Virus record (IMG/VR): IMGVR_UViG_3300017560_000307
Direction: 5' to 3' (one strand)
DNA: 64,000 bases
Source: a virus
Lineage: Duplodnaviria; Heunggongvirae; Uroviricota; Caudoviricetes
Shown here: positions 1 through 34,423 of the stretch, piece after piece
How positions within the stretch are numbered: position 1 is the stretch's first letter
Layout: the number at the start of each line of letters is the position of its first letter
Notes under the pieces: generated by a model
What the model saw: the letters and a program-made list of their open reading frames with translations, nothing else
What the model was told of the DNA's origin: nothing
Database searches by the model: none
Made by a program: the position numbers and the translations under genes

Positions 1-1092
1 TCACTCCCGAAGCGGCACTCGCCGACCCCCAATAATCTTTACCTTCCCCTCAGGCTTGCAGATCGGGCACTTCCTTCCATACATGCCGACATAGCTTTCC
101 CTGCAGGATGAGCACACCTTCATATTCTTCATGGCGATATCCAAATCCTTCATCCAGTCAATAGCACTTGGCCGGAGGTGAGGGTAGAAGATCTTGTCAT
201 ATTGCCGGTCGAAACACAGTCGGAAGTTTTCCATCAGGATGACGTCCAGCCTGGCAAAGGCGGCCCGGTGTCGCTTACTGGAATTCGTCTCTCCCGCCGC
301 AGGCTCCGGTGGCCATTTCAATTTGTGAGTGGTGACATCATCTGGTCTCACCCCTTTGAAGAGGCTGAATGGTTCTCTCGGAGTAAGAAGGATGTAATGC
401 AGAGCCATAGCTAATCCCCATAGATCCGATTCTATGGTTGGCCGAACGGTGCCGTAGCGGATCTCAGGAGCCAGGAAGTTGCTCTGGAAAAAGACGAACG
501 TCTCCGGAGCGAGTCCATCACGATAGACTCCAGATTTCCCCGGAACGCCGACTGCTGCCCAGTCCATATCGATCAGGTCAATAGGTGGTTTGCAATACAT
601 GTTGTGAAAGAGGATGTTGGGGGGATTGATATCCGTGTGAATGATATGGGCGTTATGAAGGGACGCTACTTGTCTCGCCAGCGATGCCGCAATCAGGAGA
701 CGACTGCCCAAAGAGAGGTTTTTGAACATCGCCACATCAAGGGATTTGGTTTCCCGGCTGCGTTTCACGTTTTGGACCAGTACCCCAAACTTCGTGTCAT
801 CGGTACGTTGGACCGCGGCATGGGGAAGGGCAGGGACGATATACAGGATGCCAGTCCTTTTGTGGAAGCCCTCAACATACTGTTGGAAGTTCAATATCCT
901 GGCCCGGATTTCCGGCTTGGGGGTTTTGTACTCCTTGTATAGGTATGGTGTCGGATTGCCTGTTTTGGCGTCATGGGTAGCGAAGAAATCTGCCCTGCCG
1001 TTCGTCTTGTCCTTGTCGATTGCGCCAATCACATATGGGGAAGCGACGAGTGTTGACTGCATGTTTGTCCTAAGGGAAAAAAGCTGTTCCAT
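1..1092 (-). CDS. Ser/Thr protein kinase-like protein with C-terminal Cys4 zinc ribbon (third gene of vWA-PP2C-kinase triad)
   Basis: Catalytic-loop-like HTDINPPN, APE-like FLAPE, C-terminal CSSC...CPIC. Start overlaps the PP2C stop by 23 nt. Stop codon falls at positions 1-3. Confidence 0.6.
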   Translation of the reverse strand: MEQLFSLRTNMQSTLVASPYVIGAIDKDKTNGRADFFATHDAKTGNPTPYLYKEYKTPKPEIRARILNFQQYVEGFHKRTGILYIVPALPHAAVQRTDDTKFGVLVQNVKRSRETKSLDVAMFKNLSLGSRLLIAASLARQVASLHNAHIIHTDINPPNILFHNMYCKPPIDLIDMDWAAVGVPGKSGVYRDGLAPETFVFFQSNFLAPEIRYGTVRPTIESDLWGLAMALHYILLTPREPFSLFKGVRPDDVTTHKLKWPPEPAAGETNSSKRHRAAFARLDVILMENFRLCFDRQYDKIFYPHLRPSAIDWMKDLDIAMKNMKVCSSCRESYVGMYGRKCPICKPEGKVKIIGGRRVPLRE

Positions 1093-2188
1093 GCTTCATC
1101 CAGTACTCCAGGCAATCCTCGTCAATCAGTACACCTACAGTGCGGTTGTCATGCTTGTGGGTCGTGTTTGAACCACCCTCCACCTCCAGTTCATATCCAC
1201 GAACCCACCTCTCGAGGATGTGATGGACATCCGCATTGGGTGTCTGCTTGTTGGCGAAGTGGTATGCCATCTCGTCGCGGATCATGTAGATGCCGTTCTC
1301 TTCCCGTTGCTTTTCTACTTGCCTTCTTTGACGATTGACGAACCCTACAGCCATCCCGTCGGAGCAAATGGCAAAGAAGTTCCCGGATTCGTGTAACTTG
1401 GGGATCTTCTGGATATCCGGCTTGATATTGGCGGCCGTGCCCAGGGCGTTGTCCATGCGATCGCCGTATTTCCCTCCCTTGGGCAGGTAGTTGCGGGCGT
1501 ATCGACCATCACCGGAGAAATGAAACGCCCCACCGTCTCCAATGCTGCCGAAGACAAAACAATCGGAGAATTCTGCCACCAGCAGCAGAGTGGTGGCGGT
1601 GATTCCATTACCGCTTTGGGCGAGTGAAAGATTGAGTCTCTGGATATCCCTATCGGCCTGGGTAACGGCTTCCCGCACGATGAGCTCAGGCAATTCAGGG
1701 TGGTTCTCGATGTCTTTGAGACCACCGTCCATCACGAATCTCAGGATGGATCCTACAGCTGAGGACACAACCTGATGGGAACCGATCCGGCTCTGACTAA
1801 AGGATCCGATCCCATCGGCCACGGCTATGACATTGCAGCCAGGAAGCTGGAGATGAAAACAGGCATCTTCCTGCCGACCCTCGTGTCCAACAGAGGTTGC
1901 ACTGGCAACGATACCTGACAAAAAGTTGGGCAAATCCTCGGGAGCGGGCGGGATTTGAGGAGAAAAGCTCGGAGCTGGTATTGGATCTTGCCTGGTATCT
2001 TGCTCGGTTGTCTCATCTACATCTGTGGCGGTTGATTCCGCACATTTATCGACCACCACCTCCTGTACCGCAGCAGGAGGTGGTGCTGGCTCGTCTGGAT
2101 CCTCAGGTGAGCTGGTACACGGCTCTTCTTCGGGAGTCTGAGTCATTACTTTTTTCCAATTCCTCACCCATTTGCGGATTCGCCGCAT
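1070..2188 (-). CDS. PP2C-family Ser/Thr phosphatase
   Basis: VIAVADGIGS and ICSDGMAVGF metal-binding DG motifs. Pro/Glu-rich N-terminal linker. ATGA overlap with the upstream vWA gene. Confidence 0.65.
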   Translation of the reverse strand: MRRIRKWVRNWKKVMTQTPEEEPCTSSPEDPDEPAPPPAAVQEVVVDKCAESTATDVDETTEQDTRQDPIPAPSFSPQIPPAPEDLPNFLSGIVASATSVGHEGRQEDACFHLQLPGCNVIAVADGIGSFSQSRIGSHQVVSSAVGSILRFVMDGGLKDIENHPELPELIVREAVTQADRDIQRLNLSLAQSGNGITATTLLLVAEFSDCFVFGSIGDGGAFHFSGDGRYARNYLPKGGKYGDRMDNALGTAANIKPDIQKIPKLHESGNFFAICSDGMAVGFVNRQRRQVEKQREENGIYMIRDEMAYHFANKQTPNADVHHILERWVRGYELEVEGGSNTTHKHDNRTVGVLIDEDCLEYWMKHGTAFFP

Positions 2189-3009
2189 CAGGCAATGGGC
2201 TGTGTTTCATCTACAGCACTTTCGGACCCCTGTTTGGGAGACTCACGAAGCGCGGTAATGGACTTGAGGAGGAAGTCGCGGAGTTGTTTCCCGGACTTTG
2301 GAGTATCGAAGAAATCTGGCCCGGAGGAGACATCCTTCAACAGCTCCTTATCGGCTTTATCTCCGTAGGCAGCACAGGCAATAGTCACCCGTTCCCGGAC
2401 GATAGAGTCGCCCAGGTGGAGGGGCTGGCCGCTGTAATTCGCTTTAATTACGGCCGCCTTGCCTTTGGGATCGGACGATCGATTTTCCCCACCATCAGAC
2501 ACGATAATAATGGTGGCGAATCGTTTATCCTTGCCCCGCTGCCCATTCACTTCCGGATTACTCAGCCACCCATCGGTAATATCGCCCGCCAGGAGTAATG
2601 CCTTGCCAATAGCTGTGCCATCTCCATAGCTGAAATAAGGCGCAAGATCGACATCAGCAAGATAGGCAACTAAATCAGTAGTCGGGTCAACGAGCGGTGC
2701 TGGCCTGGCGACAACGGTTGCCTCATTATCGAAGGCAATAAAGGCCACATGGTAGGCGCGTCGATTTGTGCCTCCAGCCAATGTCGCCATCAGGTTATCC
2801 TTGGCGTTGAATACCTGATTGAGTACCTCTACCGTTTTTGACACTCCCGGAGTCTCCGCATCATTGTCCTCAGACATTGAGGCGGAGGCGTCAATGCAGA
2901 TGACCACCAGCTCATCGAACCAGGGGGGAACCTCAATATCTTCCCAAGGCTCTCCTGACTCGTGTTCAAATGCAGGTTTCCTACGCACTTCCTCCTTGGG
3001 CGGTTCCAT
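2188..3009 (-). CDS. von Willebrand factor A (vWA/TerY-like) domain protein
   Basis: MIDAS motif DASASMS, TAIG, IIVSDGGEN. First gene of a three-gene minus-strand operon. Confidence 0.7.
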   Translation of the reverse strand: MEPPKEEVRRKPAFEHESGEPWEDIEVPPWFDELVVICIDASASMSEDNDAETPGVSKTVEVLNQVFNAKDNLMATLAGGTNRRAYHVAFIAFDNEATVVARPAPLVDPTTDLVAYLADVDLAPYFSYGDGTAIGKALLLAGDITDGWLSNPEVNGQRGKDKRFATIIIVSDGGENRSSDPKGKAAVIKANYSGQPLHLGDSIVRERVTIACAAYGDKADKELLKDVSSGPDFFDTPKSGKQLRDFLLKSITALRESPKQGSESAVDETQPIA

Positions 3010-3194
3010 GACGCACTCCTTGATTATGGCTTCCAGTATTTGTATTCATTTCCCCCAGAGTCTTCATAATACTCGCATGCCCCGGCTTTGCCAACATATA
3101 TCCGAGCCGTTCGGCTGATACAATAGAGATATCCAATACAAGTAACGAAATCTTTGAACACAGACGCCTATGAGCGCCAGTTCTTGACGTACCT

Positions 3195-3881
3195 ATGTCG
3201 CTTTTTACACCCGAAATTATCCAAACCGAACGAAATATCGACTTGACCGACCCCAATGGCAAGGCTGTGGCTGAAGCCCTGATCAATGCTACGACCGCCT
3301 ATGTGAGTCGCTATGTGGGGTATCCGATCGAGCAGGCGGAGCAAACATCCTATTTCTCGGATGGATACTCCCATGTCTGGCTGCCAACCGGGGCTCCTGT
3401 CTCGTCTCTTTCCCTCTCCCGGAAGTCAGGTGGTGGGTACACAGATATCCCCAGTAATACCTATGACTGGTCAGAGAGCGGAGAGATCGAGAGCACCTTT
3501 AGCTGGCCAAGTGGACTGAAAGCGGTCAAGGCTGTCTATACCGCCGGCTGGACGGAGAACACTTTGCCCGGGGATCTACGCGATGCCATGATCGATATGG
3601 TCACGCTCAAATTGCAGCAGATTGCCAACTTCTCGGCTTCCACTACAGACACCACTACCGGTGAGGGGGAAGAGGAGGAGGGCGGTAGCAGCGAAGTAAC
3701 CACCCCGCCAGGTCAGCTGAAGAAATACAGTGTTGATGGCTATACCGAAGAGTATTCGACGGCCCAGACCGACGCGTTTTGGAAGGCACGTTCTGCCCAG
3801 CTCGCCAAATCCATCGGTGACAACATTCCAAGCAGCATCAAGGAGGTCATGGCTCGTTACCGCAAGCCATTCGCTATCTGA
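3195..3881 (+). CDS. phage head-tail connector/adaptor (gp6-like)
   Basis: N-terminus resembles the gp6-like head-tail connector family. It is the first gene of the tail-side late operon. Acidic Gly/Glu-rich linker. Confidence 0.5.
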   Translation: MSLFTPEIIQTERNIDLTDPNGKAVAEALINATTAYVSRYVGYPIEQAEQTSYFSDGYSHVWLPTGAPVSSLSLSRKSGGGYTDIPSNTYDWSESGEIESTFSWPSGLKAVKAVYTAGWTENTLPGDLRDAMIDMVTLKLQQIANFSASTTDTTTGEGEEEEGGSSEVTTPPGQLKKYSVDGYTEEYSTAQTDAFWKARSAQLAKSIGDNIPSSIKEVMARYRKPFAI

Positions 3882-4180
3882 TGCTCAAACATTTGCAAAC
3901 AAACACCACAGTCAGCGTCGTCGACGGCAAGATGCAGTCAGTTGAGGGTATGAGCAGCCTGCCAGCATTCAAAGTCCCATCATCGGCAGAAGTCATTGCG
4001 ATTCGTGAAGTACCGGCAGCCCTGGCTTTCAGCTTCCGCTTCAAAGACGTCTACGACATCACCCACTTTCACTACCTAATGGAAGGCACAACCCGTTACC
4101 GCGTCGTTGGAGTCGAAACCTTTAACACACCCTTCGGCGCCCACACCCGTGTCCATGCCGAGATGAAGGCGGGTACCTGA
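3881..4180 (+). CDS. phage head-tail joining / head-closure-like protein
   Basis: ATGA overlap with the preceding gene. Size and position match a head-closure protein. No direct motif support. Confidence 0.35.
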   Translation: MLKHLQTNTTVSVVDGKMQSVEGMSSLPAFKVPSSAEVIAIREVPAALAFSFRFKDVYDITHFHYLMEGTTRYRVVGVETFNTPFGAHTRVHAEMKAGT

Positions 4181-4182
4181 CC

Positions 4183-4665
4183 ATGATTAGCTACCACCTC
4201 GACATCCAGGGCATGAACAAGCTGCAGGCTGCCTTCCAGCGATCGCCACAACTAACCATGTCCAAACTGACCACCGCCATGAATAAGTCATTGGTGCGAC
4301 TGAAGGCAACCGCCAAGGAACTGGTCCCGGTTGATAACGGCACATTGCGCGGGTCGATTCTGATTGATCCTCTCCAAATATCAGGCAACACAATCATCGG
4401 CACAGTCGGAACAGATCTAAATTATTCCGAGTATCAGGAGAGGGGAACCGGTATCTATGGTCCCTACGGCACCCCGATCCGGCCCAAGACCAAGAAGGTG
4501 CTGGCCTGGCAGAAAAACGGCAAGCGGTACTTCGCCAAGGAAGTCAAAGGTTCTCGCCCGCGCTGGTATATGCGTGGATCTCTCGAACGCAATACCAATG
4601 CGGTTCAGGGTTACTTCGACACTGCGGCCGCAGAAATTGTCCGTGAGCTTGGAGGTGGCGCCTGA
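4183..4665 (+). CDS. HK97 gp10-family tail component
   Basis: LVPVDNGTLRGS motif typical of the HK97 gp10 family. Lies in the late operon. Confidence 0.5.
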   Translation: MISYHLDIQGMNKLQAAFQRSPQLTMSKLTTAMNKSLVRLKATAKELVPVDNGTLRGSILIDPLQISGNTIIGTVGTDLNYSEYQERGTGIYGPYGTPIRPKTKKVLAWQKNGKRYFAKEVKGSRPRWYMRGSLERNTNAVQGYFDTAAAEIVRELGGGA

Positions 4666-5117
4666 TGACCATCATCAAGCCGCTGCGAGACGCAGTCTAT
4701 GACCTGGTCGACGGCATTGACGTCTCTGAGGTTCTGCCTGGTGGGTGGGAGGACAAGAGTAAGCACCCGCCTAAACAAATAACCTACCCGGCATTCTGGG
4801 TAGAACCGCTTAGCAACACCACGACCACACTGGATAGCGCGAGCAACGTCAGCACCTTCACGTTTGGCATCTCAATCACCGAAAGCTATGAGGATTCGCC
4901 AATCGCGGAAGACACCGCTATCGAGTTGGCAGATCTGGTTTATCGCCAGGTGTTGCAAGCCATTGAGAACGGCAGCCCTATTCAGGAAGTCGAAGGTGTG
5001 CTCGATGTCATTCCCAGTGGGCAATGGGCCTTTGACCAACGATATCCAGCGCGGGTCTACCGGATTGATGTTGCCATTCGCGTTGCCGAAGACCGTTACC
5101 AGGATTTAGACCCGTAG
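4665..5117 (+). CDS. tail completion / tail terminator-like protein
   Basis: Call rests on position and size only. Start overlaps the previous stop. Confidence 0.35.
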   Translation: MTIIKPLRDAVYDLVDGIDVSEVLPGGWEDKSKHPPKQITYPAFWVEPLSNTTTTLDSASNVSTFTFGISITESYEDSPIAEDTAIELADLVYRQVLQAIENGSPIQEVEGVLDVIPSGQWAFDQRYPARVYRIDVAIRVAEDRYQDLDP

Positions 5118-5136
5118 GAAGGCGGGAAACACATAT

Positions 5137-5340
5137 ATGAATACCAAAGATACAGAAATCGAAACAATCGAAGAGGCCACTCCCAAGCAGGAACCAAAAG
5201 CAATTGAAGCCCCCAGGACTGACTATTTCTTCCCGAATCAGGACATAGACCTGCCGTTTGGCGGCGAGTTCACCAGCCTCAAAGAAGCCGAGGAAGCAAA
5301 TGCGAAATACATAGCAAAACACAATAAGGAGCACAAATAA
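5137..5340 (+). CDS. hypothetical small acidic protein
   Basis: 67-aa ORF with an RBS-like GGAAGG upstream. Coupled to the next gene. Confidence 0.3.
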   Translation: MNTKDTEIETIEEATPKQEPKAIEAPRTDYFFPNQDIDLPFGGEFTSLKEAEEANAKYIAKHNKEHK

Positions 5341-6322
5341 TGGCTAAGCAACTAGGACGACAACGTTCAACCGGCCTGGGCAAGGAATCCACTTACGGCA
5401 CAGCCGTGGCCGCAACAAACTGGTTCCCCATCCAGGAAAACAGCATCAATGATCGCAAGGCGACCGTCACCGACAACAGCGGTACCGGCACCCGTGATGA
5501 CATCCTCTCTACCGGGATTGATTACCTCTACTCGGATGGCAATATCAATGGTGTGATCTACGACAAACACTTCCCCTTGTAGGTCTGGCAGCCTTCGGAT
5601 CCATCTCTACAGACAACCACGCGACCGCGACTGGAGTAAAGGTCCACAAAATCAACCTGGCCAATACCCTGCCCTCATTCACCATTTCCACCAAGGACGC
5701 CAATGAGTCCGTCCGCTACGCCGGCGCCCTCTGTGGTCAGCTTGAAATATCTGGCGCCATGGGCTCCCTTGCTACCTATGCCAGTCAATGGATGGGCCGC
5801 AAGAGTGTCGCTGAGAGCAATACCAGCGCCGTAACCAAGGGGAATTCTTTCCTTCCTGGTCAGATCAAGCTCTATGTAGCCGACACAGTGGATGCCCTGG
5901 ATGAAGCCACCAAGAGTTGCTTCACTGACTTCACCTTCACCCTCAACAACAACCTGTCCACCAACGGCTGTCTTGGATCCATCGATCCAGACTTCGATCC
6001 GGGTGTGCGTAACCTGGCATTGACGCTCAACAAGACCTATGTCAGCACCGAGTTCAAGGATCTGGTGATGGGTACAACGCCCAAGGCCTTCCGCATCATT
6101 ATGGAGAACACCGATGTGGTGATTGGATCCGCTTCTGAGCCCGAAGCCAACACTCACCCATCCGTGGCCATCGACTTTGAGCCTGGTTTGTTCACCGAAT
6201 GGAGCAGGGAAGGTGGACTGGATGATTTGATGACTGAGTCGATTAACTACCAGCCACTTCATTCCTTCAGCGCTGCCAAGTCATTGACCATGACCATTAC
6301 CAACATGGAGACCAGTTACTAA
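5340..6322 (+). pseudogene. putative major tail protein split across two frames (5340-5582 frame 0, open frame 5522-6322 frame -1)
   Basis: The 80-aa N-terminal ORF ends at TAG 5580-5582. The -1 frame is open from 5522 to 6322 and encodes about 265 aa with no RBS or start of its own. The combined length of about 330 aa and the position before the G/GT chaperone fit a major tail protein. No canonical slippery heptamer is present. A C4 run lies at 5573-5576. Confidence 0.45.
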
Positions 6323-6714
6323 TGAGTGAATCCAAATTCAAGATCCGCACCAAGCGTATTTCCCTTGGCTTTCTCGGCAAGGCCTGGGAAGACGCGGACG
6401 CCTATATCGAGTCGCGTTTTCTAAGCATCCCGGATAGCCGCATCATCCAGAAGAAAGTTGCAACGGTTGGTGATGACGACACCAAAGCGATCGAAGAGAT
6501 GTCGTCTGTCATCAGCCAGTTGTTTGTCTCAGGGAAGACATTGGCTCATGACGGCACATTGGTGGACTTGGCTGCCGATGACATTGAGTTGGCCTTTGAC
6601 GCGTTGGCCATGCTCGAACTCTATGGACGCGTGCTGGGGAATCCTGACCCAAAAGCCTCGCAGCCCTCGACGACTACCACGCCGGTCGAGGCCACGAGCC
6701 AGCCAAGCGTCTAG
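6322..6714 (+). CDS. tail assembly chaperone (gpG-like)
   Basis: Positioned immediately upstream of the tape measure. A slippery heptamer lies 3-proximal with an open -1 frame beyond it. Confidence 0.6.
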   Translation: MSESKFKIRTKRISLGFLGKAWEDADAYIESRFLSIPDSRIIQKKVATVGDDDTKAIEEMSSVISQLFVSGKTLAHDGTLVDLAADDIELAFDALAMLELYGRVLGNPDPKASQPSTTTTPVEATSQPSV

Positions 6715-6926
6715 AGCAACGGTATCGGGCTATTTTCGGCCTCTCGATGGCCGAATTCGAGATTGAGCCGTCAGAGGAATTCCTTTACTGGGCAGCCGAT
6801 CAGGCCGCTGAGTACAAGGCAAAGGCTGAAGCGATGGAAATAATGCAGCAGAGACAGGAAGCGGAGAGTCGAGGACATAGCAGCAACCCGGCGCCGTTTA
6901 TCTCACCAGACCAGGAAGATATGTAG
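6322..6926 (+). CDS. tail assembly chaperone G-T fusion produced by programmed -1 frameshift
   Basis: CCCAAAA (X XXY YYZ) at 6648-6654 in the zero frame. The -1 frame stays open from 6648 to TAG 6924-6926, adding about 92 aa (…PKSLAALDDYHAGRG…PDQEDM). Confidence 0.5.
6648..6654 (+). promoter_or_regulatory. -1 ribosomal slippery heptamer CCCAAAA
   Basis: Zero-frame codons read gaC CCA AAA Gcc. This is the classic G/GT frameshift position. Confidence 0.5.
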
Positions 6927-6936
6927 TAGGAGGCAC

Positions 6937-9399
6937 GTGGCCCAGAACAAAGTCGAAATACAACTCAGCGCCGTTGATAACGCCACTTCCACCTTCAAGA
7001 GTGTAGGAAGTGGAATTAGTGAGCTCAGTGGCCGGATCCAGGAGCTCAAGAAGATCCAGCAGGATGCCGCGCGAAGTATCCTCACCGCTCCCGATACCTC
7101 TTCATGGCTGGAATCCAAGGCTGACTTGAAGAAAGTCACCGAGGACCTCTCTTTGGCAGAGAAGGAGCTGTCCGAGACAACAAAGAGCCTTGGCATCGCG
7201 CAGGACGGCACCGCGCAGTCTTCTTCATCCCTGTTCAAGACATTCACGGTGGGGACGTTGGCGGCGAATGCCATTCAAAAGGGGATCCAACTGGCGACTG
7301 ATGCCATCAAGGCCTCGATAGATGCTGCATCCAACTACGAACGCTCACTGATGGGTCTCAATTCCGCCGGTGCGGCCTTCGGATTTACTGCTAACCAGAT
7401 GAATGCAGCCATAAAGCAAGTCACAGACGATGGCCTACTCGGCTTCTCAACTGCCGCCGTGGCCCTCAAGACACTTCTATCCACCGGTATGGATATAGAT
7501 ACCGCCACAATGTTAATGGCTCGCTTCAAGGATGAAGCTGCGTTTGGTCGTAAGGAGACTCTGACCTATGGTCAAGCAGTGGAAAACCTGGCGCAAGCGT
7601 ATAAGACGCAGAGTTCCACCTTGGGTGATGCTGCTGGTCATACCGATAACTTCTCAAATGCTCTTGAAGTCGGTGCTGCCGCCCTCGGCAAAACCGTTGA
7701 GCAACTCACCGCTGCTGAGACAGAGCAGGCAAAGCTCATCGGCTACATGCAGCAAGGTGCTTATACTGCTGGCGATGCCGCTGTATATATGGATACCTAT
7801 GCAGGCTCAGTCGCTCGGATGGAAGCTGAAGGACAGAAAGCATCGGTTTCGTTGGGCCAAGTGCTTATGCCGGCCGTGGAGTTCACCACTGGGGCTTTTG
7901 CGGACATGCTGCAAAGTGTGAATAAATCAAGCAAAGGTATAGAGATATTCCAGGGGTCGCTCGTCACGATAGTTGCCATCGCCCAGACTGCGATTCAGGT
8001 CTTTGTCGGTCTTGGCCAGGCAATTATGGGGACAGTCCAGGCGATTCTGAGCCGGGATATGAATAAACTCAATGAGGGAATCAATCGCGCCACTCAAGGA
8101 TTCGTCAATATCTGGGAGAATTACGACACCCAGATGAAGAAGATCATGAATAGTGGGGCAGATGCCGCCGCCAATGCTCACAAAGAGTCACTTGATCGCA
8201 TGACTCAAGAAAACGGTGCCGCTTCAGTAAAGATGCAACAACAAATTGACGACGCCACTCGTCAATATCAACGTTCGATGGAGAGCCGTAATCGGTCATT
8301 CCAGGAATCAGTAAAAGACATGGTTATCGCGCACCGCGATAAGTCTCGATCCATTCAGTCGGATATTGCCAAGGAGCAGGCCGCTTACGACGCTGCCAAC
8401 CTCAAGCGCAAAGAGTCCTACGAGGATGACATCGCCTCCCTTGAAGAACGTCACCTGGACAAGGTCCAAGACATCGAGGCGCAAATTGCCGAAGAGCGTG
8501 AGAAGGGACTGGTAGTTGATGGAATTCTTTACCAGGAAGCCAATGAGAAAAAGATAGCCAAGCTGGAAGACCAACTGCGAAATGAGACAGAGACTTACCA
8601 GAAGTCAATAGATAAGCGAAAGGCCCAATACAGCGAAGATGTCTCCGCAGATAAGAAGCGGCATGACGAGAAGCTCTCACAGTTACAGATATCTCTCAAT
8701 GAAGAGCTAGTTATCCTCAACCGTCACCGCGCTGATGTGGCCCAGGTTGGTGAGGCGGTCAAGGAGGACGATCTTTCACGTCTCAAACGCAGCTTTGCCG
8801 AGCAGAACACTGAGGCCGCCCGCAACTACGCAGAACAGCTGGAGAGGATACGAAAGCAAGGTAACGAGTTGGGGATCAGTTATACCAACTCCATGAAGGA
8901 TGGCGTGAGTGCCGGATCTGATAAAGTCAAGGATCAGATTGCCTTCGATTTGAGGCGCGCTGTTTCATCCGGCGGGTTGGTCATTGGTGACGGTGGCAAG
9001 GCTGCAGCCGACACTTTTTGGACTAAATTCAATAAGAGCATCGGTGATGGTGTTGACGAGGCAGGAGAGGGGATAAAGCTCAACCTCGAAAAGGCGATCA
9101 AGTCTGGAGGGCTGGGTATTTCCGGTGGTGTGGATATCTCCAACATCATCTTTGGTGCTACCCCGCGCGCCGGTGGCGGTACCACACGCCCAGGCGAAAC
9201 CACACTGGTTGGCGAACGTGGGCCGGAAATCGCCCAGTTCCCGGCCGGCACCAGGATCATCCCGACCCAGCAAACCCGGCAGATCCTCTCCCAGCAACCT
9301 CAAGGGCGACAAACCACCGTCAATATCGGCACGGTCGTCAACCAAAGCAATATGGATCCCGACGCCTTTTTCAGCGCCCTGGCCTGGCAAATCAGATAG
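6937..9399 (+). CDS. tail tape measure protein
   Basis: 820 aa with a GTG start and SD AGGAGG. Long coiled-coil, Ala/Gln-rich sequence with a Gly-rich C-terminus. Follows the G/GT chaperone. Confidence 0.8.
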   Translation: MAQNKVEIQLSAVDNATSTFKSVGSGISELSGRIQELKKIQQDAARSILTAPDTSSWLESKADLKKVTEDLSLAEKELSETTKSLGIAQDGTAQSSSSLFKTFTVGTLAANAIQKGIQLATDAIKASIDAASNYERSLMGLNSAGAAFGFTANQMNAAIKQVTDDGLLGFSTAAVALKTLLSTGMDIDTATMLMARFKDEAAFGRKETLTYGQAVENLAQAYKTQSSTLGDAAGHTDNFSNALEVGAAALGKTVEQLTAAETEQAKLIGYMQQGAYTAGDAAVYMDTYAGSVARMEAEGQKASVSLGQVLMPAVEFTTGAFADMLQSVNKSSKGIEIFQGSLVTIVAIAQTAIQVFVGLGQAIMGTVQAILSRDMNKLNEGINRATQGFVNIWENYDTQMKKIMNSGADAAANAHKESLDRMTQENGAASVKMQQQIDDATRQYQRSMESRNRSFQESVKDMVIAHRDKSRSIQSDIAKEQAAYDAANLKRKESYEDDIASLEERHLDKVQDIEAQIAEEREKGLVVDGILYQEANEKKIAKLEDQLRNETETYQKSIDKRKAQYSEDVSADKKRHDEKLSQLQISLNEELVILNRHRADVAQVGEAVKEDDLSRLKRSFAEQNTEAARNYAEQLERIRKQGNELGISYTNSMKDGVSAGSDKVKDQIAFDLRRAVSSGGLVIGDGGKAAADTFWTKFNKSIGDGVDEAGEGIKLNLEKAIKSGGLGISGGVDISNIIFGATPRAGGGTTRPGETTLVGERGPEIAQFPAGTRIIPTQQTRQILSQQPQGRQTTVNIGTVVNQSNMDPDAFFSALAWQIR

Positions 9400-18266: not shown

Positions 18267-18770
18267 TCATGCGAGTTCGACCAATGATCGCTTGATGAAG
18301 ATGTCTGTGTCCCCTCCTTTATCTATGGAGATGCCTATCATCCCGTGTGGAGCGCTCTCGATCTCGGTGATGTACCCCACTTCTGGTAACAGCGCGAAGA
18401 ATGCGTTATCTCGAGCAACGACGGGCGCTCCAATAGTCAGTTCCTGATCTTCAGCCGGCGATGAAGATGATCCGGGCTGCTGGCCGACTTGATTCATGGT
18501 GCGGCGGCGAATTGGTCGTACGTGGCACTTGCGAACCCATTGGCAGTTGGTCACGATCTGACTATTGGAAGGCGAGACGCAGTAGGCATAGTCTTCACCA
18601 GTCGCCACATCAATGATATAGGCGACCTCTCCAGGGTAATATTCCGACTCTTCGTCGATGATGACTGGTGTGCCGAGAGTGAGGTATTGCTCAGCGCTCA
18701 TTATCGTCCTACAGGGAGGCTGAAGAGCATCCCATCTCCGCCCGTGGTAGTTGGTAAGATTCCATTCCAT
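18267..18770 (-). CDS. hypothetical protein (likely start at Met24, coordinate 18701, TAATG-coupled to SPFH gene)
   Basis: Last gene of the minus-strand operon. No recognisable motif. Confidence 0.45.
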   Translation of the reverse strand: MEWNLTNYHGRRWDALQPPCRTIMSAEQYLTLGTPVIIDEESEYYPGEVAYIIDVATGEDYAYCVSPSNSQIVTNCQWVRKCHVRPIRRRTMNQVGQQPGSSSSPAEDQELTIGAPVVARDNAFFALLPEVGYITEIESAPHGMIGISIDKGGDTDIFIKRSLVELA

Positions 18771-19588
18771 CGGGCTATTGCCTGTGCTTGCGTCTCAATC
18801 TTCTTCAACTCCAGATACTCTGGTGTGATGGACTGGGCTTGCTCACGTTGAGCTTCAGCCTCACCACGAGCCTTTTCGATCGCAGCTTCTGCTTCCTTCT
18901 TGACCCGTTCCACCTCGTTATTGGCCTTGACTACCTGCTGGGCTGCCACCTGGGATTGCTCGATTGCCTGGGAGAAGGCCGCGGAGAATGTCAGGTTGAT
19001 GATGTTCACCGAGTCGACCGAGATACCGTACTTTTCCAGTCGTTCACTCAGGTTGGTCTTGGCTGCCTGAGCCACCTCGGATCGCTTCTTGATCAGGTTC
19101 TCGGCCGTGTAATTGGCCGTTGTGGCTTTGAAAGATTCCTGAATCGCTGGGGCAATGACGCGGTCTGCGTAGTTGATGCCGACACCCTGATAGATATCGG
19201 AGACTTTGCCGCGTTCCAGATGGTAGTTCACCGCCAGTTTGGACTGGACGTCCTGCAGATCCTGGCTGGCTGCAGTTGCGTCGACCTCATCTTTCTGGAC
19301 CTGGGTGTTGAAGGTGACGACCTTCTCTATAGGGAAGGGAGCCTTGGTGGTGATACCCGGACTGAGTTCACGGCCGGTAATAGCTCCAAAGCGGGTGATA
19401 ACACCTACCTGTCCAACATCTACAGCAACGACTGAGGTTGAGAGATAGGCGGCAACCAAGACAATAGCGGATGCTATGCCGAGTTTCCTGGCAAGTCCGG
19501 CTGGAGCGTCACTGGCTCCTCGGACAATGAGTGCACCGACACCGGCTGCCAGACCGATGACGGATAAGAGAATAGTGAGAAAGATCAT
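18701..19588 (-). CDS. SPFH/band-7 (stomatin/prohibitin/HflKC-like) membrane protein
   Basis: N-terminal TM followed by GVITRFGAITGRELSPGITTKAPF, a typical SPFH core. Coiled-coil C-terminus. Confidence 0.7.
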   Translation of the reverse strand: MIFLTILLSVIGLAAGVGALIVRGASDAPAGLARKLGIASAIVLVAAYLSTSVVAVDVGQVGVITRFGAITGRELSPGITTKAPFPIEKVVTFNTQVQKDEVDATAASQDLQDVQSKLAVNYHLERGKVSDIYQGVGINYADRVIAPAIQESFKATTANYTAENLIKKRSEVAQAAKTNLSERLEKYGISVDSVNIINLTFSAAFSQAIEQSQVAAQQVVKANNEVERVKKEAEAAIEKARGEAEAQREQAQSITPEYLELKKIETQAQAIARWNGILPTTTGGDGMLFSLPVGR

Positions 19589-27864: not shown

Positions 27865-27937
27865 AGCGGGTTGGAGTAACAGTAACTCGGAAGGCTCATA
27901 ATCTTCGTCTATCTCGGTGCAAATCCGAGACCCGCAA
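27865..27937 (+). tRNA. tRNA-Met: tRNA-Met/Ile2 (CAT)
   Basis: Cloverleaf by hand. D-arm GAGT/ACTC, anticodon loop CTCATAA, T-arm CTCGG-TGCAAAT-CCGAG, CCA encoded. Mismatch at acceptor pair 1:72. Confidence 0.6.
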
Positions 27938-27946
27938 CCAATATAC

Positions 27947-28017
27947 CGACTGATGGCCGATTGGCTAGGCACGCGATTGCAAACCGTGGAATCCCCGTTC
28001 GATTCGGGGTCAGTCGT
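27947..28017 (+). tRNA. tRNA-Cys: tRNA-Cys (GCA)
   Basis: Acceptor CGACTGA/TCAGTCG, anticodon loop TTGCAAA, T-arm CCCCG-TTCGATT-CGGGG, CCA encoded. Short D-stem. Confidence 0.55.
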
Positions 28018-28021
28018 CCAT

Positions 28022-28094
28022 ACGCTCATAGCTCAGTGAATAGAGCAGTTGCCTTCGAAGCAGCAGGTCGGAGGTTTGAATCCTTCTGGGCGTA
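28022..28094 (+). tRNA. tRNA-Arg: tRNA-Arg (TCG)
   Basis: D-arm AGCTCAGTGAATAGAGC, anticodon loop CTTCGAA, T-loop TTTGAAT, CCA encoded. Confidence 0.65.
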
Positions 28095-28099
28095 CCAAT

Positions 28100-28172
28100 G
28101 CTTCCTTAGCTCATCAGGTAGAGCGGCGCACTTGTAATGCGCTGGTACGGGGTTCGAGTCCTCGAGGAAGCC
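28100..28172 (+). tRNA. tRNA-Thr: tRNA-Thr (TGT)
   Basis: Acceptor GCTTCCT/AGGAAGC, anticodon stem-loop GCGCA-CTTGTAA-TGCGC, T-loop TTCGAGT. Confidence 0.65.
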
Positions 28173-28176
28173 CCCT

Positions 28177-28250
28177 CTTGGCGTAGAGTAGCGGACGTAC
28201 TCGCTTCCCTTGGAAGGAAGAAATCGCTCGTTCGAATCGAGCCGCCTTGA
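28177..28250 (+). tRNA. tRNA-Pro: tRNA-Pro (TGG), acceptor stem with two U-U mismatches
   Basis: D-arm GAGT/ACTC, anticodon CTTCC-CTTGGAA-GGAAG, T-arm GCTCG-TTCGAAT-CGAGC, CCA encoded. Acceptor pairs 2:71 and 3:70 are mismatched, so it may be a pseudo-tRNA. Confidence 0.45.
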
Positions 28251-28254
28251 CCAT

Positions 28255-28326
28255 GGGTCTCTAGCACAACGATAGTGCAGCATCCCTGCAAGATGAAGGT
28301 TCTCAGTTTGAATCTGAGGAGATCCA
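28255..28326 (+). tRNA. tRNA-Ala: tRNA-Ala (TGC)
   Basis: Acceptor GGGTCTC/GAGATCC, D-arm GCAC/GTGC, anticodon loop CCTGCAA (C at position 33), T-arm CTCAG-TTTGAAT-CTGAG, CCA encoded. Confidence 0.5.
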
Positions 28327-28333
28327 CCAATTC

Positions 28334-28407
28334 GGGCTCGTCGCATAGCGGCCTATTGCAGCGGACTCTTAATCCGCCTTTCCCTGGTTCAAATCCAGGC
28401 GAGCTCA
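28334..28407 (+). tRNA. tRNA-Lys: tRNA-Lys (CTT)
   Basis: Anticodon stem-loop GCGGA-CTCTTAA-TCCGC, T-arm CCTGG-TTCAAAT-CCAGG, CCA encoded. Confidence 0.65.
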
Positions 28408-28414
28408 CCAGTTT

Positions 28415-28485
28415 GGGGATGTAGTGAAATGGCATCACGCTTGGTTTTCAACCAGGTATCCAGGGGTCAGAACCCTGCTTCCCTA
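28415..28485 (+). tRNA. tRNA-Glu: tRNA-Glu (TTC)
   Basis: D-arm GTGA/TCAC, anticodon CTTGG-TTTTCAA-CCAGG, T-arm CAGGG-GTCAGAA-CCCTG, CCA encoded. One acceptor mismatch. Confidence 0.5.
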
Positions 28486-28491
28486 CCATGT

Positions 28492-28564
28492 GTCCCTGTC
28501 GTCTAGAGGACCAGGACACCACCCTCTCAAGGTGGAAACCGGGGATCGTGACCCCGTGGGGATA
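28492..28564 (+). tRNA. tRNA-Glu: tRNA-Glu (CTC)
   Basis: Bacterial tRNA-Glu-like D-arm GTCTAGAGGACCAGGAC, anticodon CCACC-CTCTCAA-GGTGG, T-arm CGGGG-ATCGTGA-CCCCG, CCA encoded. Three G-U pairs in the acceptor. Confidence 0.5.
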
Positions 28565-28571
28565 CCAATAT

Positions 28572-28643
28572 GCCTTCCTAGCTCAGAGGCAGAGCAGCGT
28601 CTTTACACGGCGACGGTCGGGATTTCAAAATTCTCGGAGGGTA
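28572..28643 (+). tRNA. tRNA-Val: tRNA-Val (TAC)
   Basis: D-arm AGCTCAGAGGCAGAGC, anticodon loop TTTACAC, CCA encoded. Imperfect T-stem. Confidence 0.45.
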
Positions 28644-28650
28644 CCAGTGA

Positions 28651-28722
28651 CCCGTTGTGATGAAATTGGCATCATGCCTCCCTGTTAAGGAGAGATTCTA
28701 GGTTCAAATCCTAGCATCGGGG
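28651..28722 (+). tRNA. tRNA-Asn: tRNA-Asn (GTT)
   Basis: D-arm ATGA/TCAT, anticodon CCTCC-CTGTTAA-GGAGA, T-arm CTAGG-TTCAAAT-CCTAG, CCA encoded. Confidence 0.55.
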
Positions 28723-28728
28723 CCATAT

Positions 28729-28800
28729 ATCCGCGTAGCTCAAGGGACAGAGTGCCACTCTGCGAAGGTGATGATGCATGTTCGATTCATGCCGTGGATA
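28729..28800 (+). tRNA. tRNA-Arg: tRNA-Arg (GCG)
   Basis: Acceptor ATCCGCG/CGTGGAT, anticodon loop CTGCGAA, T-arm GCATG-TTCGATT-CATGC, CCA encoded. Confidence 0.5.
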
Positions 28801-28806
28801 CCATTT

Positions 28807-28878
28807 GCGATCATAGCTCAGTGGTAGAGCGCAGCCTTGTCACGGCTGAGGCCGGCGGATCGTTCCCGCCTGGTCGCG
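28807..28878 (+). tRNA. tRNA-Asp: tRNA-Asp (GTC)
   Basis: D-arm AGCTCAGTGGTAGAGC, anticodon CAGCC-TTGTCAC-GGCTG, T-arm GGCGG-ATCGTTC-CCGCC, CCA encoded. Confidence 0.65.
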
Positions 28879-29187
28879 CCAGTTTGGATTGGTTGACTTG
28901 TAAAGCAATATGTGTTCAAATCTTAGCCCCTGAACCAAGTCTTGGATTGGTGCTCCACAGATTTATGCCCCTCATGGGATATGTCGCACGCCCTTTGGTA
29001 ACGTCCACTCAAACATCCCATCATCAAGACATCTTTCCATCTTCCTGTCTTCCTGTCTTTCCATCTAAACATCAAAACGTTTTGCCTCCCATACATCTTG
29101 TCGTCAGTAATGCTTGCCATCCAGCAGGCAAAACAGCCTCCCTTTCCTTCCGATCCTCCGCCCCGCCCTATGTCTTTTTGACACATC

Positions 29188-32100: not shown

Positions 32101-32643
32101 CTCTGGCAACGTATGGTGGATGAATACGAAATAATCGATATGAATCTGCACCATCATCCCCTGCAGTTATTGCGTAAGCAGCAGCCCCGGGGAACATCAT
32201 CCAGCCGGGACCTGGAACATCTTCCCGATGGGATGAAGGTTTTCTTGCCCGGTCTCGTGGTTTGCCGGCAACGGCCCGCCACGGCCAAAGGCATCACGTT
32301 CCTGCTGTTGGAAGATGAATTTGGCCTCGTGAATGTCGTCGTCTATCCCGATCTGTATGACCGGCAACGACAGCATGTGAGATCCACATCGTTATTGACC
32401 GTGGAAGGCCGACTCCAACTCGCCAACAACAACATCAATATTGTGGCCGAACGGCTCCATCCAATTGAGACCAACGGCATGGTGAAGGATCCCCCGCGGT
32501 GGGGAGAATCAGCCCCGGTATCAACCGAGGTCAATCCTGACACCATCCAGCTCGTCCAGCTGCCCGCCCGCGATCTCATCGAGACACCACTCACCAGCGC
32601 CGATATCCGGGCCGTCAATCCGGAATCGCACAACTATCGCTAG
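29188..32643 (+). CDS. dnaE: DNA polymerase III alpha-subunit family (DnaE-type, N-terminal PHP domain); possible GTG start at about 29269
   Basis: PHP motif YTELHLHTAFSFLDGAS…ITDHDGLYG, polymerase core motifs, C-terminal OB-like region. 1151 aa. Confidence 0.85.
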   Translation: MSPKEHLFYDHFTPQGVILCWHDWRRCVAYTELHLHTAFSFLDGASLPEEIVAQATAYGYRSLAITDHDGLYGAMEFAQAARAAGITPITGAEITLDDGSHLTLLAESRTGYGNLCRLLTDSKHGRPPAPVPVRSDPPTVHPVLKTSDLASYAEGLILLTGCRNGQLARAIDEHRLYDAETILSTYIAWFGQDNVIVELQQNYVFGDTPRIARLVALADRFGVRYAATGNVHYHLQERHRLQDVLVAIAHRATLDTSHRERRPNAHFHLRTPEEMAAIFADYPEAIRTTEIIAERCAAFDLTQDLQYEFPDYEAGTGESPDAFLSRVCHEAFADRYRSSSPTMRDKAFTQLQEELRLIALHGLAGFFLLYRDLLNLARDVAAELRGREATGSRKFLPPGRGRGSSVSSIVCYLTGLSPVDPLAHDLYLGRFLNEELPSIPDIDIDFPREIRERMIERVYEVYGADRVALVCAFSTYRLRSAVRDVGKTLGLPLTDLDRIAKLSEPRSADGLAEELDRLPEYAARKNTPPWCYLIDLAKQLAGFPRHVTQHVGGMIISATPLNEIVPIQPAAMDGRYICQWDKDSTRDAHFVKIDFLALGMLSLVEECLDLIDASGRQPIDLSRIDFNDPNVFHMIQEGDTIGVFQVESRAQIQMIRRTKPESLADLIVQVAIVRPGPIIGGAVAPFVERRINPHYQTVYDHPKLEPVLKETLGVILYQEQVLQVAEVIAGFTPGQADQLRRAMTRKRSHEAMESMRQDFITGAEGEGITPELASDIFTKLAGFADYGFPKSHAAAFGLLAYQSCWLKHYYPAEFLCALLNNQPMGFYAPHVLINDAKRHGTRVLRPDINASHLECTVEGKRTVRIGLTFVKGLSEDAALRIAGERQLNGPYRSLADLIRRVALRPEAQQNLIAAGACDCFGLQRREMLWQIGLFVSPKRFGARRRRGKHPGQQLPLALPTIQDQVTLPRTTLWQRMVDEYEIIDMNLHHHPLQLLRKQQPRGTSSSRDLEHLPDGMKVFLPGLVVCRQRPATAKGITFLLLEDEFGLVNVVVYPDLYDRQRQHVRSTSLLTVEGRLQLANNNINIVAERLHPIETNGMVKDPPRWGESAPVSTEVNPDTIQLVQLPARDLIETPLTSADIRAVNPESHNYR

Positions 32644-32693
32644 TTAATCCTTGAAAGATTGTAGCTGTATCCGAGTCTCCTGCCATCTCACCA

Positions 32694-33246: not shown

Positions 33247-33344
33247 TGTTCACATCCTTTCATGGGTCTGTCCTATATTCTCTCAAATCTCCCACCCCAT
33301 CCATGACTTCGTGTACACCTCCATATATCTCATGTCGATATGGT

Positions 33345-34421: not shown

Positions 34422-34423
34422 TC

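What the first reader, a model, noticed from the sequence alone, without database searches (positions are those of the whole stretch)
1..3009. vWA–PP2C–Ser/Thr kinase triad (TerY-P-like) inserted between head and tail morphogenesis genes
Three overlapping minus-strand genes encode a TerY-like vWA protein with an intact MIDAS, a PP2C phosphatase, and a divergent kinase with a C-terminal zinc ribbon. This triad has been described as a Ter-associated signalling module and has been reported as an anti-phage system (TerY-P). Here it sits as an opposite-strand moron directly upstream of the head-tail connector gene. That placement is unusual and suggests phage-encoded superinfection exclusion or host manipulation.
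Basis: partly seen in the sequence, partly recalled or inferred. Interest (0 to 1): 0.7.

Follow-up and report, generated by a model that had tools for sequence, protein, structure and literature searches.

The report
Phage-linked TerY-P-type vWA–phosphatase–kinase cassette
Three tightly packed genes (a metal-binding vWA protein, a PP2C phosphatase and a Ser/Thr kinase with a zinc ribbon) are a divergent member of the known TerY-P signalling/defence triad, sitting at a fixed spot beside the neck–tail genes of a poorly sampled phage lineage, and here at the edge of the phage region rather than between head and tail genes.

Summary
The triad is real. Window 2188-3009(-) is a vWA protein with an intact MIDAS, 1070-2188(-) is a PP2C, and 1-1092(-) is a protein kinase ending in a 4-Cys zinc ribbon. 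The genes overlap by 1 nt and 23 nt.

Profiles of each protein match the archetypal R478 TerY–PP2C–kinase triad. The kinase's best plasmid hits are kinases of vWA–PP2C–kinase triads with the same gene order. PADLOC's TerY model does not hit the window protein.

The placement claim is only partly right. The triad is divergent from the head–tail adaptor gene (3195). Beyond the kinase, outside the window, lie three ORFans and then cellular genes (M20 peptidase, amidohydrolase, peptide ABC transporter). No head genes were found.

All three related phage contigs found (L006, L040, L041) carry the triad at the same position. Their triad proteins are only 26-35% identical to each other and to the window's, against 26-76% for tail proteins. 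A copy with no recognisable phage genes nearby (L043) is as similar as the phage-linked ones.

Best reading: a phage-borne accessory TerY-P-type phospho-switch, most likely for prophage defence or exclusion. That function is inferred, not shown. It is a new member of a known kind, of moderate interest.

The parts
2188..3009 (-). TerY-type vWA protein, 273 aa, MIDAS D40/S42/S44/T132/D172
   Evidence: Pfam VWA 4e-9. The AlphaFold model built on a 39-sequence alignment has pLDDT 87.4 and matches MIDAS-type vWA domains in the PDB. A family profile hits R478 TerY3, TerY2 and TerY1 at 4e-9, 4e-6 and 1.5e-4.
1070..2188 (-). PP2C phosphatase, 372 aa, with an N-terminal extension of about 95 aa (basic start, then acidic and Pro-rich)
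   Evidence: Pfam PP2C_2 2.7e-20. The catalytic Asp residues are conserved in 10 homologues. The long N-terminus and the 1-nt overlap with the vWA stop codon are conserved in L003.
1..1092 (-). Ser/Thr protein kinase, 363 aa, with HxD...N, IDxD and APE motifs
   Evidence: Pfam Pkinase 3.7e-9. The best plasmid tblastn hits are kinases of vWA–PP2C–kinase triads. The catalytic residues are invariant.
55..114 (-). C-terminal zinc ribbon of the kinase (C327, C330, C343, C346), followed by only 17 residues
   Evidence: Sequence. It aligns with the Cys-rich motif that follows the 'RPxAxEW' helix in the R478 and Rhodoferax triad kinases and in L043, L006 and L042; the match is partial in Calothrix. 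It is absent from the L040 and L041 kinases.
3010..3194 (.). Divergent 185-bp control region between the vWA and adaptor genes, with a promoter-like TTGGCA-17-TATTAT (3094-3066, minus strand) pointing at the triad
   Evidence: Consensus scan (consensus match only, and 2 sites in 3.4 kb is no more than shuffles give). Blocks are conserved with L006, L040 and L041, and L040 has TTGCCT-17-TATAAT at the aligned place.
3195..3881 (+). Head–tail adaptor gene, the first gene of the neck/tail operon (context, not part of the triad)
   Evidence: phrog_442 5e-16. It is 49-55% identical to the adaptors of L006, L040 and L041.

Best explanation
**What it is (shown)**
This is a three-gene, probably translationally coupled operon of the TerY-P ('TerY-phosphorylation triad') type. 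It encodes a TerY-type vWA protein with a complete metal-ion-dependent adhesion site, a PP2C phosphatase and a Ser/Thr kinase. All catalytic residues of the two enzymes are intact. The kinase ends in a zinc ribbon and has no further effector domain.

The operon belongs to a phage lineage, not to the host. It lies divergent from the head–tail adaptor gene and shares a short control region with it.

**Position in the genome (inferred)**
In this contig it lies near one end of an integrated prophage or phage-derived element.

**How it works (inferred from the family)**
- The vWA protein is the sensor or scaffold, binding a ligand or protein through its MIDAS.
- The kinase is the output. It phosphorylates host or incoming-phage proteins, with the zinc ribbon perhaps contacting nucleic acid or a partner.
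- The PP2C keeps the switch off or resets it.

**Most likely role (inferred)**
Phage-encoded defence or superinfection exclusion against competing phages. The known anti-phage activity of TerY-P systems and the cassette's rapid divergence both fit this.
For: **Domains and active sites:**

**Homology to true triads**
- The kinase's best plasmid hits are kinases inside vWA–PP2C–kinase operons of Calothrix, Rhodoferax and Sphingomonas plasmids, next to restriction or AAA genes.
- Profiles of the three window families hit the plasmid triads and the archetypal R478 triad. The R478 PP2C match is weak (E 0.033).
- The vWA profile does not hit the other R478 vWA protein.
- PADLOC's TerY model hits 4 of 28 vWA relatives.
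- JGI names some relatives YegL. From my own knowledge this is COG4245, the TerY-type vWA group.

**Phage linkage**
- The arrangement [tail operon]<-adaptor | vWA->PP2C->kinase is the same in L006, L040 and L041.
- Their tail proteins are homologous to the window's.
- Genes with tail/fibre/virion-structural PHROG matches lie beyond the triad in L006 and L040.
- The intergenic DNA is partly conserved as far as the triad's promoter-like site.

**Accessory behaviour**
- Triad proteins are 26-37% identical in every pair compared. Tail proteins are mostly 35-76%.
- Equally similar triads sit in contigs with no recognisable phage genes nearby (L043, L042, L007).

**Anti-phage function of TerY-P systems**
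- PMC11090510 cites Gao et al. 2020 for it.
- The preprint 10.1101/2022.08.12.503731 shows protection against Autographiviridae with most cells surviving.
Against: - No experiment or expression data bears on function.
- PADLOC gives no TerY or PP2C hit for the window proteins. The plasmid triads used as references are not hit either.
- The triad is present in every related phage contig found and at a fixed position. That would also fit a lineage-intrinsic function.
- Two of the four phage-linked kinases lack the zinc ribbon, so that feature is not essential.
- The tail tube gene of this element is split by a frameshift, so the element may be decaying.
- No att sites, integrase or head genes were located. 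'Prophage end' rests only on the neighbouring cellular-type genes.
Confidence: 0.55

Rival explanations
1. The triad serves the phage itself. It could be a host-takeover or counter-defence kinase/phosphatase pair, for example one that phosphorylates host transcription or defence proteins, or reverses host abortive-infection kinases. It could also be a phospho-switch that regulates the phage's own late or neck–tail gene expression or its lysis–lysogeny decision.
For: - It is present at the same position in the window and in all 3 related phage contigs found, despite deep divergence.
- It shares a short, partly conserved divergent control region with the first neck gene.
- There is no separate effector gene.
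Against: - Triads that are just as similar occur with no recognisable phage genes nearby (L043, L042, L007) and on plasmids beside restriction-type genes.
- Divergence as deep as between phage-linked and non-phage copies is more typical of arms-race cargo than of a core regulator.
Confidence: 0.27
2. The triad is a host gene cluster, and phages of this lineage integrate immediately upstream of it. On this reading the adjacency reflects an integration hotspot, not phage cargo.
For: - Cellular-type genes lie about 3 kb beyond the kinase both here and in L041.
- L043 shows a triad of about the same similarity between a glutamine-synthetase-like gene and oxidoreductase genes, with no phage genes called.
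- No head genes flank the adaptor here.
Against: - In L006 and L040, genes with tail/fibre/virion-structural PHROG matches lie on the far side of the triad too.
- The far flank differs in all four contigs, while the phage side is conserved.
- The adaptor–vWA intergenic DNA aligns across the four contigs up to the triad's promoter-like site, which leaves no obvious junction.
- No tRNA gene lies at the borders.
Confidence: 0.1
3. The cassette is inert cargo of a decaying prophage remnant and has no current function.
For: - The tail tube gene is split by a -1 frameshift, whereas it is intact in the three relatives.
- No head genes were recognised in 64 kb.
Against: - All three ORFs are full length with every catalytic and MIDAS residue intact.
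- The gene overlaps are preserved.
- The triad proteins are identical in contigs from three samples.
- The frameshift may be an assembly artefact at a C-run, or programmed.
Confidence: 0.08

Closest known systems
TerY-P triad of the ter locus of plasmid R478 (TerY1 with TerY-C domain – PP2C – kinase; the archetype of Anantharaman, Iyer and Aravind 2012, as summarised in PMC11090510 and PMC4978471)
   Same: - The gene order is the same: vWA, then PP2C, then kinase, with start/stop overlaps.
- The vWA is TerY-type: the family profile hits TerY3, TerY2 and TerY1 at 4e-9, 4e-6 and 1.5e-4.
- The kinase shares the IDxD and APE motifs, the 'RPxAxEW' helix and the Cys-rich zinc ribbon that follows it (profile hit 1.2e-5).
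   Different: - There are no Ter genes nearby.
- The vWA lacks the TerY-C domain.
- The R478 PP2C (545 aa) and kinase (499 aa) have large extra regions; the window kinase stops 17 residues after the zinc ribbon.
- Pairwise similarity is marginal: kinase 23%, vWA not significant by BLAST.
- The context here is a phage.
TerY-P triads attached to CoCoNuT / type IV restriction-like operons (e.g. Rhodoferax antarcticus plasmid NZ_CP019242; Bell et al. 2024, PMC11090510)
   Same: - These are the closest annotated relatives of the window kinase: BLASTP 1.3e-14, with the alignment running through the zinc ribbon.
- The three-gene order is the same.
- The kinase carries a zinc ribbon, as in the paper's definition.
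   Different: - Those triads are followed by large AAA/helicase/McrBC-like genes that are the presumed effectors. No such genes follow the triad here.
- Their kinases carry C-terminal extensions of more than 100 aa.
Stand-alone TerY-P anti-phage system (Gao et al. 2020; a P. aeruginosa variant in 10.1101/2022.08.12.503731)
   Same: A three-gene vWA/PP2C/kinase cassette with no extra effector. It has experimentally shown phage defence, in which most cells survive.
   Different: - According to PMC11090510, the kinase of that system carries a C-terminal OB fold instead of a zinc ribbon.
- PADLOC's TerY model does not hit the window protein, and only 4 of 28 relatives are hit.
- That system is chromosomal rather than phage-borne.
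Single-gene anti-phage kinases (PD-T4-6, MkoA, MADS Mad6, BREX PglW)
   Same: The kinase catalytic core gives weak matches (E 7e-9 to 3e-5).
   Different: The similarity is only at the level of the general kinase fold. These systems have no vWA or PP2C partners, and all scores are far below the family cut-offs.

Membership tests
TerY-P triad (sensu Anantharaman et al. 2012 / PMC11090510) | TerY-type vWA protein with MIDAS | tested here: met
   - The MIDAS is intact.
- The family profile hits R478 TerY1-3 but not the other R478 vWA protein.
- PADLOC's TerY model hits 4 of 28 relatives.
- The window protein alone is recognisable only as a generic vWA.
TerY-P triad (sensu Anantharaman et al. 2012 / PMC11090510) | Adjacent PP2C-family phosphatase | tested here: met
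   PP2C_2 2.7e-20. The metal-binding Asp residues are conserved.
TerY-P triad (sensu Anantharaman et al. 2012 / PMC11090510) | Adjacent Ser/Thr kinase fused to a C-terminal zinc ribbon | tested here: met
   Pkinase 3.7e-9. The 4-Cys motif aligns with the zinc ribbons of the R478 and Rhodoferax triad kinases. Two lineage relatives (L040, L041) lack it.
TerY-P triad (sensu Anantharaman et al. 2012 / PMC11090510) | One operon with the order vWA, PP2C, kinase | tested here: met
   Overlaps of 1 nt and 23 nt. The order is the same in R478 and in three plasmid triads.
TerY-P triad (sensu Anantharaman et al. 2012 / PMC11090510) | Association with Ter genes or with DNA-processing/restriction modules | tested here: not met
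   The neighbours are neck/tail genes on one side, and ORFans followed by peptidase and ABC transporter genes on the other. This association is frequent but not obligatory for the family.
Gao et al. 2020 TerY-P defence system (PADLOC models) | Match to the PADLOC TerY model | tested here: not met
   The vWA and PP2C proteins have no PADLOC family at E<=0.1. The kinase hits only generic kinase models. The reference plasmid triads also fail this test, so the models are narrow.
Gao et al. 2020 TerY-P defence system (PADLOC models) | Kinase with a C-terminal OB fold (as described in PMC11090510) | tested here: not met
   The kinase ends 17 residues after the zinc ribbon, leaving no room for an OB fold.
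Gao et al. 2020 TerY-P defence system (PADLOC models) | Confers resistance to phages | not testable with these tools
   This needs expression and plaque assays.
Prophage moron / lysogenic-conversion cassette | Sporadic presence among otherwise related phages | tested here: not met
   The triad is present at the same locus in the window and in all 3 related contigs found. The far-flank genes, by contrast, are variable.
Prophage moron / lysogenic-conversion cassette | Own promoter, transcribed independently of the late operon, located near a prophage end | tested here: inconclusive
   - It is on the opposite strand.
- A promoter-like site lies at 3094-3066 (consensus match only).
- Cellular-type genes begin about 3 kb past the kinase.
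- No att site or integrase was found.

The most novel reading that the evidence does not exclude
The triad is not a defence cargo but a lineage-specific phage regulatory organ. On this reading it is a metal- or ligand-sensing phospho-switch, wired through a shared divergent control region to the neck/tail operon. It would decide when virion completion, or the lysis–lysogeny choice, proceeds, possibly by phosphorylating phage or host factors.
Probability: 0.15. Interest if true: 0.7.

Novelty: new member of a known kind. Interest (0 to 1): 0.4.

Why it matters
- **A simple model for an unsolved system.** TerY-P triads are widespread, yet how they work is not described in any of the papers found here. 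This is a minimal version: no extra effector gene, and a kinase that ends at the zinc ribbon (or lacks it in two relatives). That makes the kinase the likely output and gives a simple system for asking what the vWA senses and what gets phosphorylated.
- **Movement between phage, plasmid and other contexts.** The same cassette family is found next to phage genes, on plasmids and in contigs with no phage genes.
- **A possible variable-cargo hotspot.** The adaptor-proximal locus may be a conserved hotspot for this cargo in a phage lineage that is almost absent from reference phage collections.

Tried and rejected
**Searches that found nothing**
- DNA of window 1-8000 against 50,697 phage records: no match.
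- tblastn of the vWA, PP2C and kinase proteins against phages: no match.
- tblastn of the vWA protein against plasmids: no match even at E<=1.
- Exact look-up of the kinase protein: not on record.
- Word-indexed protein searches: the vWA found only itself; the PP2C found itself plus one relative at 63% identity.
- Searches for related loci in public collections:
  - Kinase against IMG/VR: no relative.
  - Adaptor alignment against IMG/VR: one weak hit.
  - Adaptor alignment against JGI metagenome contigs: none.
  - Adaptor alignment against GTDB genomes: none.
  - P0004 and P0009 against IMG/VR: none.
- The vWA alignments were too divergent for pattern scans.

**Host and prophage boundary**
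- Host identification from the flanking M20 peptidase gave only 53-62% identity, spread over Hyphomicrobiales, Thermomicrobiales and other groups. The host is unresolved and no empty site was found.
- GC content and GC3 do not separate the triad, the phage genes and the flank.
- No att-like repeat was found between the left flank and the window.
- No tRNA gene lies at the borders.

**Structure**
- The single-sequence AlphaFold model of the kinase was unusable (pLDDT 32.5).
- The afdb50 library was unavailable.
- Fold searches with the vWA model returned only generic vWA domains.

**Readings considered and rejected**
- 'Head genes at the window's far end' is wrong. ORFs 60217-63707 encode a Ro60/TROVE protein and an RNA ligase, not portal or capsid.
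- The one INPHARED record with a TerY-type triad (MT835511.1, 'UNVERIFIED') carries it next to 1049-, 535- and 824-aa ORFs, an arrangement like the Rhodoferax plasmid operon. It is not a relative of this lineage.
Full report

Window 1-3009 holds three minus-strand ORFs: 2188-3009 (273 aa), 1070-2188 (372 aa) and 1-1092 (363 aa). Pfam assigns VWA (4e-9), PP2C_2 (2.7e-20) and Pkinase (3.7e-9). Kinase residues 321-346 also give a sub-threshold treble-clef zinc-finger match.

The catalytic and binding residues are all in place:
- The MIDAS residues (D40-x-S42-x-S44, T132, D172) are invariant in alignments of 28 and 39 relatives.
- The PP2C metal ligands D108, D125, D277 and D347 are invariant in 10 homologues; D218 is nearly so.
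- In the kinase, D154 and N159 of the HxD...N loop, the I-D175-x-D177 motif and P209 are invariant. K53 and E210 of the APE motif are nearly invariant.
- Four cysteines (C327, C330, C343, C346) form the C-terminal ribbon, and the protein ends 17 residues later.

The genes overlap by 1 nt (TGATG) and by 23 nt. A relative at about 60% identity (L003) has the same overlaps and the same long N-termini, which supports these start codons over the shorter ones a gene caller chose. L006 has overlaps of 1 nt and 26 nt.

An AlphaFold model of the vWA protein, built on 39 sequences, is confident (pLDDT 87.4). It matches MIDAS-type vWA domains such as complement C2a, factor B and CMG2. The domain part of the finding is therefore confirmed.

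**2. Where does it sit?**

On the right, 185 bp away and divergent, is a head–tail adaptor gene (3195-3881; phrog_442, 5e-16). A siphovirus-type neck and tail module follows:
- an HK97-gp10-like neck/tail-completion protein, a tube protein and an 820-aa tape-measure-sized protein;
- Dit-like and minor tail proteins;
- an amidase endolysin.

The rest of the window is phage- and plasmid-like. It holds an Erf-like annealing protein, a 13-tRNA array, a large DNA polymerase (phrog_405), ParA, an O-like replication initiator, a Replic_Relax protein, an anti-restriction-like ArdC-N (PF08401) protein and an RNA-repair set.

The window begins at the kinase stop codon, so the left side is invisible in it. 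Contigs from three other samples carry the same DNA across the triad (L001, L002, L005). L002 and L005 extend further left. After the kinase come three ORFans on the same strand (460, 194 and 126 aa; the first two have signal-peptide-like N-termini). Then come an M20 peptidase, an amidohydrolase, an SBP_bac_5 binding protein and an ABC permease. The peptidase is 53-62% identical to genes of Hyphomicrobiales, Thermomicrobiales and other MAGs, with the amidohydrolase alongside it in some. These are cellular-type genes.

No terminase, portal or capsid gene was recognised among the large ORFs tested. The ORFs at the window's far end encode a Ro60/TROVE protein and an RNA ligase, not head proteins. 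'Inserted between head and tail genes' is therefore not what this contig shows. The triad lies at the edge of the phage-like region.

**3. Is it phage cargo or a host gene?**

An exhaustive HMMER search of 1.84 billion representative proteins with the vWA protein found only 55 relatives. The best is 40% identical, and nearly all are short stand-alone vWA proteins. I recovered genomic context for seven of these relatives, plus the window itself.

Three contigs are from related phages, all with the arrangement tail operon <- adaptor | vWA -> PP2C -> kinase:
- L006 (DRR438466)
- L040 (SRR28248361)
- L041 (SRR21722022)

Their neck and tail proteins are homologous to the window's, at 26-66% identity with typical mosaicism.

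What lies beyond the triad differs between them:
- In L006 and L040 there are genes with phage structural-protein matches. L006 has a GDSL/Ig-repeat protein with 'head decoration' and 'tail fiber' PHROG hits and a beta-helix fibre. L040 has a protein of over 1100 aa with tail and virion-structural hits.
- In L041 there is a DNA methyltransferase, then a cellular peptide ABC transporter and an M19 peptidase.

The far flank is different in all four contigs, whereas the phage side is conserved. The adaptor–vWA intergenic DNA aligns across the four. In the window and in L040 the aligned region includes a promoter-like site pointing into the triad.

The simplest reading is that the triad is phage-borne and lies close to where the phage genome opens on integration. 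On that reading, the window contig and L041 are integrated, while L006 and L040 show the free or circular arrangement. This is an inference. No att site, integrase or tRNA gene was found at the borders. A phage-plasmid that carries the metabolic genes as cargo is not excluded, given the ParA, Replic_Relax and weak TrwB-like hits.

**4. A conserved locus with divergent contents**

Triad proteins are only 26-37% identical in every pairwise comparison of the four phage-linked copies. That is no closer than each is to L043, a triad lying between a glutamine-synthetase-like gene and oxidoreductase genes with no phage genes called. The adjacent structural proteins are mostly 35-76% identical.

Other triads of the family also lie outside phage contexts. 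One is on a 174-kb metagenome contig whose vWA protein NCBI assigns to an Anaerolineae MAG (L042). Another lies next to an AAA_15 ATPase (L007).

This pattern has two possible explanations: old capture followed by fast evolution, or repeated replacement at a hotspot. Either is what accessory, conflict-related cargo looks like. It is not what structural genes look like.

**5. What family is it?**

PADLOC gives no hit for the vWA and PP2C proteins, and only generic kinase models (PD-T4-6, MkoA, Mad6, PglW) for the kinase. This negative result is weak, for two reasons:
- PADLOC's TerY model hits 4 of 28 vWA relatives.
- It also misses the plasmid triads used as references here.

Positive evidence comes from homology to true triads:
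- The kinase's best plasmid hits are kinases inside vWA–PP2C–kinase operons of Calothrix, Rhodoferax and Sphingomonas plasmids. These sit beside type III restriction, AAA or ATP-binding genes, in the same gene order.
- Against the archetypal R478 ter locus (TerY3–TerX–TerY2–TerY1/TerY-C–PP2C–kinase), the vWA family profile hits TerY3, TerY2 and TerY1 at 4e-9, 4e-6 and 1.5e-4 (Z = 1e6). It does not hit R478's other vWA protein.
- The kinase profile hits the R478 kinase at 1.2e-5, with the alignment running through the 'RPxAxEW' helix into the zinc ribbon.
- The published definition of the triad is a TerY-like vWA, a PP2C and a kinase fused to a C-terminal zinc ribbon (PMC11090510). The window meets this definition.

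It is not a member of the experimentally validated Gao et al. subfamily. That kinase carries an OB fold, and the window protein does not match that system's model.

**6. How it probably works**

Shown:
- three intact, coupled genes;
- an active-looking kinase and phosphatase;
- a ligand-competent MIDAS;
- no effector gene conserved beside the triad across the lineage.

Inferred from the family literature:
- The vWA protein senses or scaffolds.
- The kinase is the output.
- The PP2C resets the switch.

TerY-P systems protect E. coli and P. aeruginosa from phages. In P. aeruginosa most cells survive. I therefore rank prophage-encoded defence or exclusion first, at roughly 0.45-0.55. The rivals, in order:
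- a phage-intrinsic role in takeover, counter-defence or regulation (about 0.27), favoured by presence in every lineage member found and by the shared control region;
- a host gene used as an integration target (about 0.1);
- inert cargo of a decaying element (about 0.08).

**7. Novelty**

The triad class and its anti-phage role are known. Three things are new here:
- a divergent subfamily;
- a minimal kinase, with only the zinc ribbon or nothing after the catalytic domain;
- a fixed position beside the neck genes of a phage lineage that is essentially absent from INPHARED, IMG/VR, the JGI metagenome contig collection searched and the GTDB species-representative genomes.

I found no paper that describes such a phage-borne TerY-P locus. 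The only TerY-type triad in the phage collection is on an 'UNVERIFIED' gut scaffold, followed by three large ORFs in an arrangement like the Rhodoferax plasmid operon.

Verdict: a new member of a known kind, of moderate interest.

Noticed in passing
window 59663-63707 (continuing beyond the window end in L011): A phage-borne RNA-repair cassette. Its parts, in order:
- tRNA-like elements, with two sub-threshold YrlA (Y RNA-like) matches of 42 and 40 bits at 59849-59910 and 59995-60061;
- a Ro60/TROVE+vWA_Ro60 gene (60217-61698);
- a 224-aa ORF;
- an RNA ligase (62433-63707);
- a PNKP gene just past the window.
A 2',5'-RNA-ligase-like ORF lies at 51862-52434.
   Followed up: partly
window 5340-6322: The major tail tube gene is split into 5340-5582 and about 5588-6322 by a -1 frame change next to a CCCC run. 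The orthologues in L006, L040 and L041 are single 323-aa ORFs. L001, assembled from another sample, shows the same split. It could be a real pseudogene, a programmed shift or a systematic assembly error.
   Followed up: partly
window 27865-28881: An array of 13 tRNA genes lies just upstream of a 1151-aa DNA polymerase gene (29188-32643; phrog_405, 1.5e-215).
   Followed up: no
window 33564-40147: Plasmid-style maintenance genes sit inside the phage-like region: ParA-like (33564-34421), an O-like replication initiator (34881-35789), a weak TrwB-like ATPase (37705-39483) and Replic_Relax (39011-40147). The last two ORFs overlap by about 470 bp in different frames, so at least one gene boundary is probably wrong. 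The element might be a phage-plasmid rather than a classical integrated prophage.
   Followed up: no
L005 2605-5121 (left of window position 1, same strand as the triad): Three ORFans follow the kinase. The first is a 460-aa protein with a signal-peptide-like N-terminus and an acidic, low-complexity region. The second is a 194-aa protein with a signal-peptide-like N-terminus. The third is 126 aa. None has a convincing PHROG or Pfam match, and none has a counterpart in the related phage contigs.
   Followed up: partly
L041 15959-20607 and L005 5443-10334: Two related elements each have a peptide-type ABC transporter and a peptidase close to the triad: M19 in L041 and M20 in the window's contig. 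The loci are not orthologous (the binding proteins are 28% identical and the operons face opposite ways). This may be coincidence in transporter-rich hosts.
   Followed up: partly
L044 (MT835511.1, record 31189-41212): An 'UNVERIFIED Bacteriophage sp.' gut scaffold carries a vWA (231 aa) – PP2C (239 aa) – kinase (488 aa) triad, followed by ORFs of 1049, 535 and 824 aa. The arrangement resembles the Rhodoferax plasmid operon and may be a CoCoNuT/McrBC-type system. Whether the scaffold is really viral was not checked.
   Followed up: no
window 18701-19588 (-): An SPFH/Band-7 family protein (Pfam 8e-31; phrog_200 'lipoprotein', 4.6e-51) lies in the minus-strand block between the lysis genes and the Erf-like gene.
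   Followed up: no
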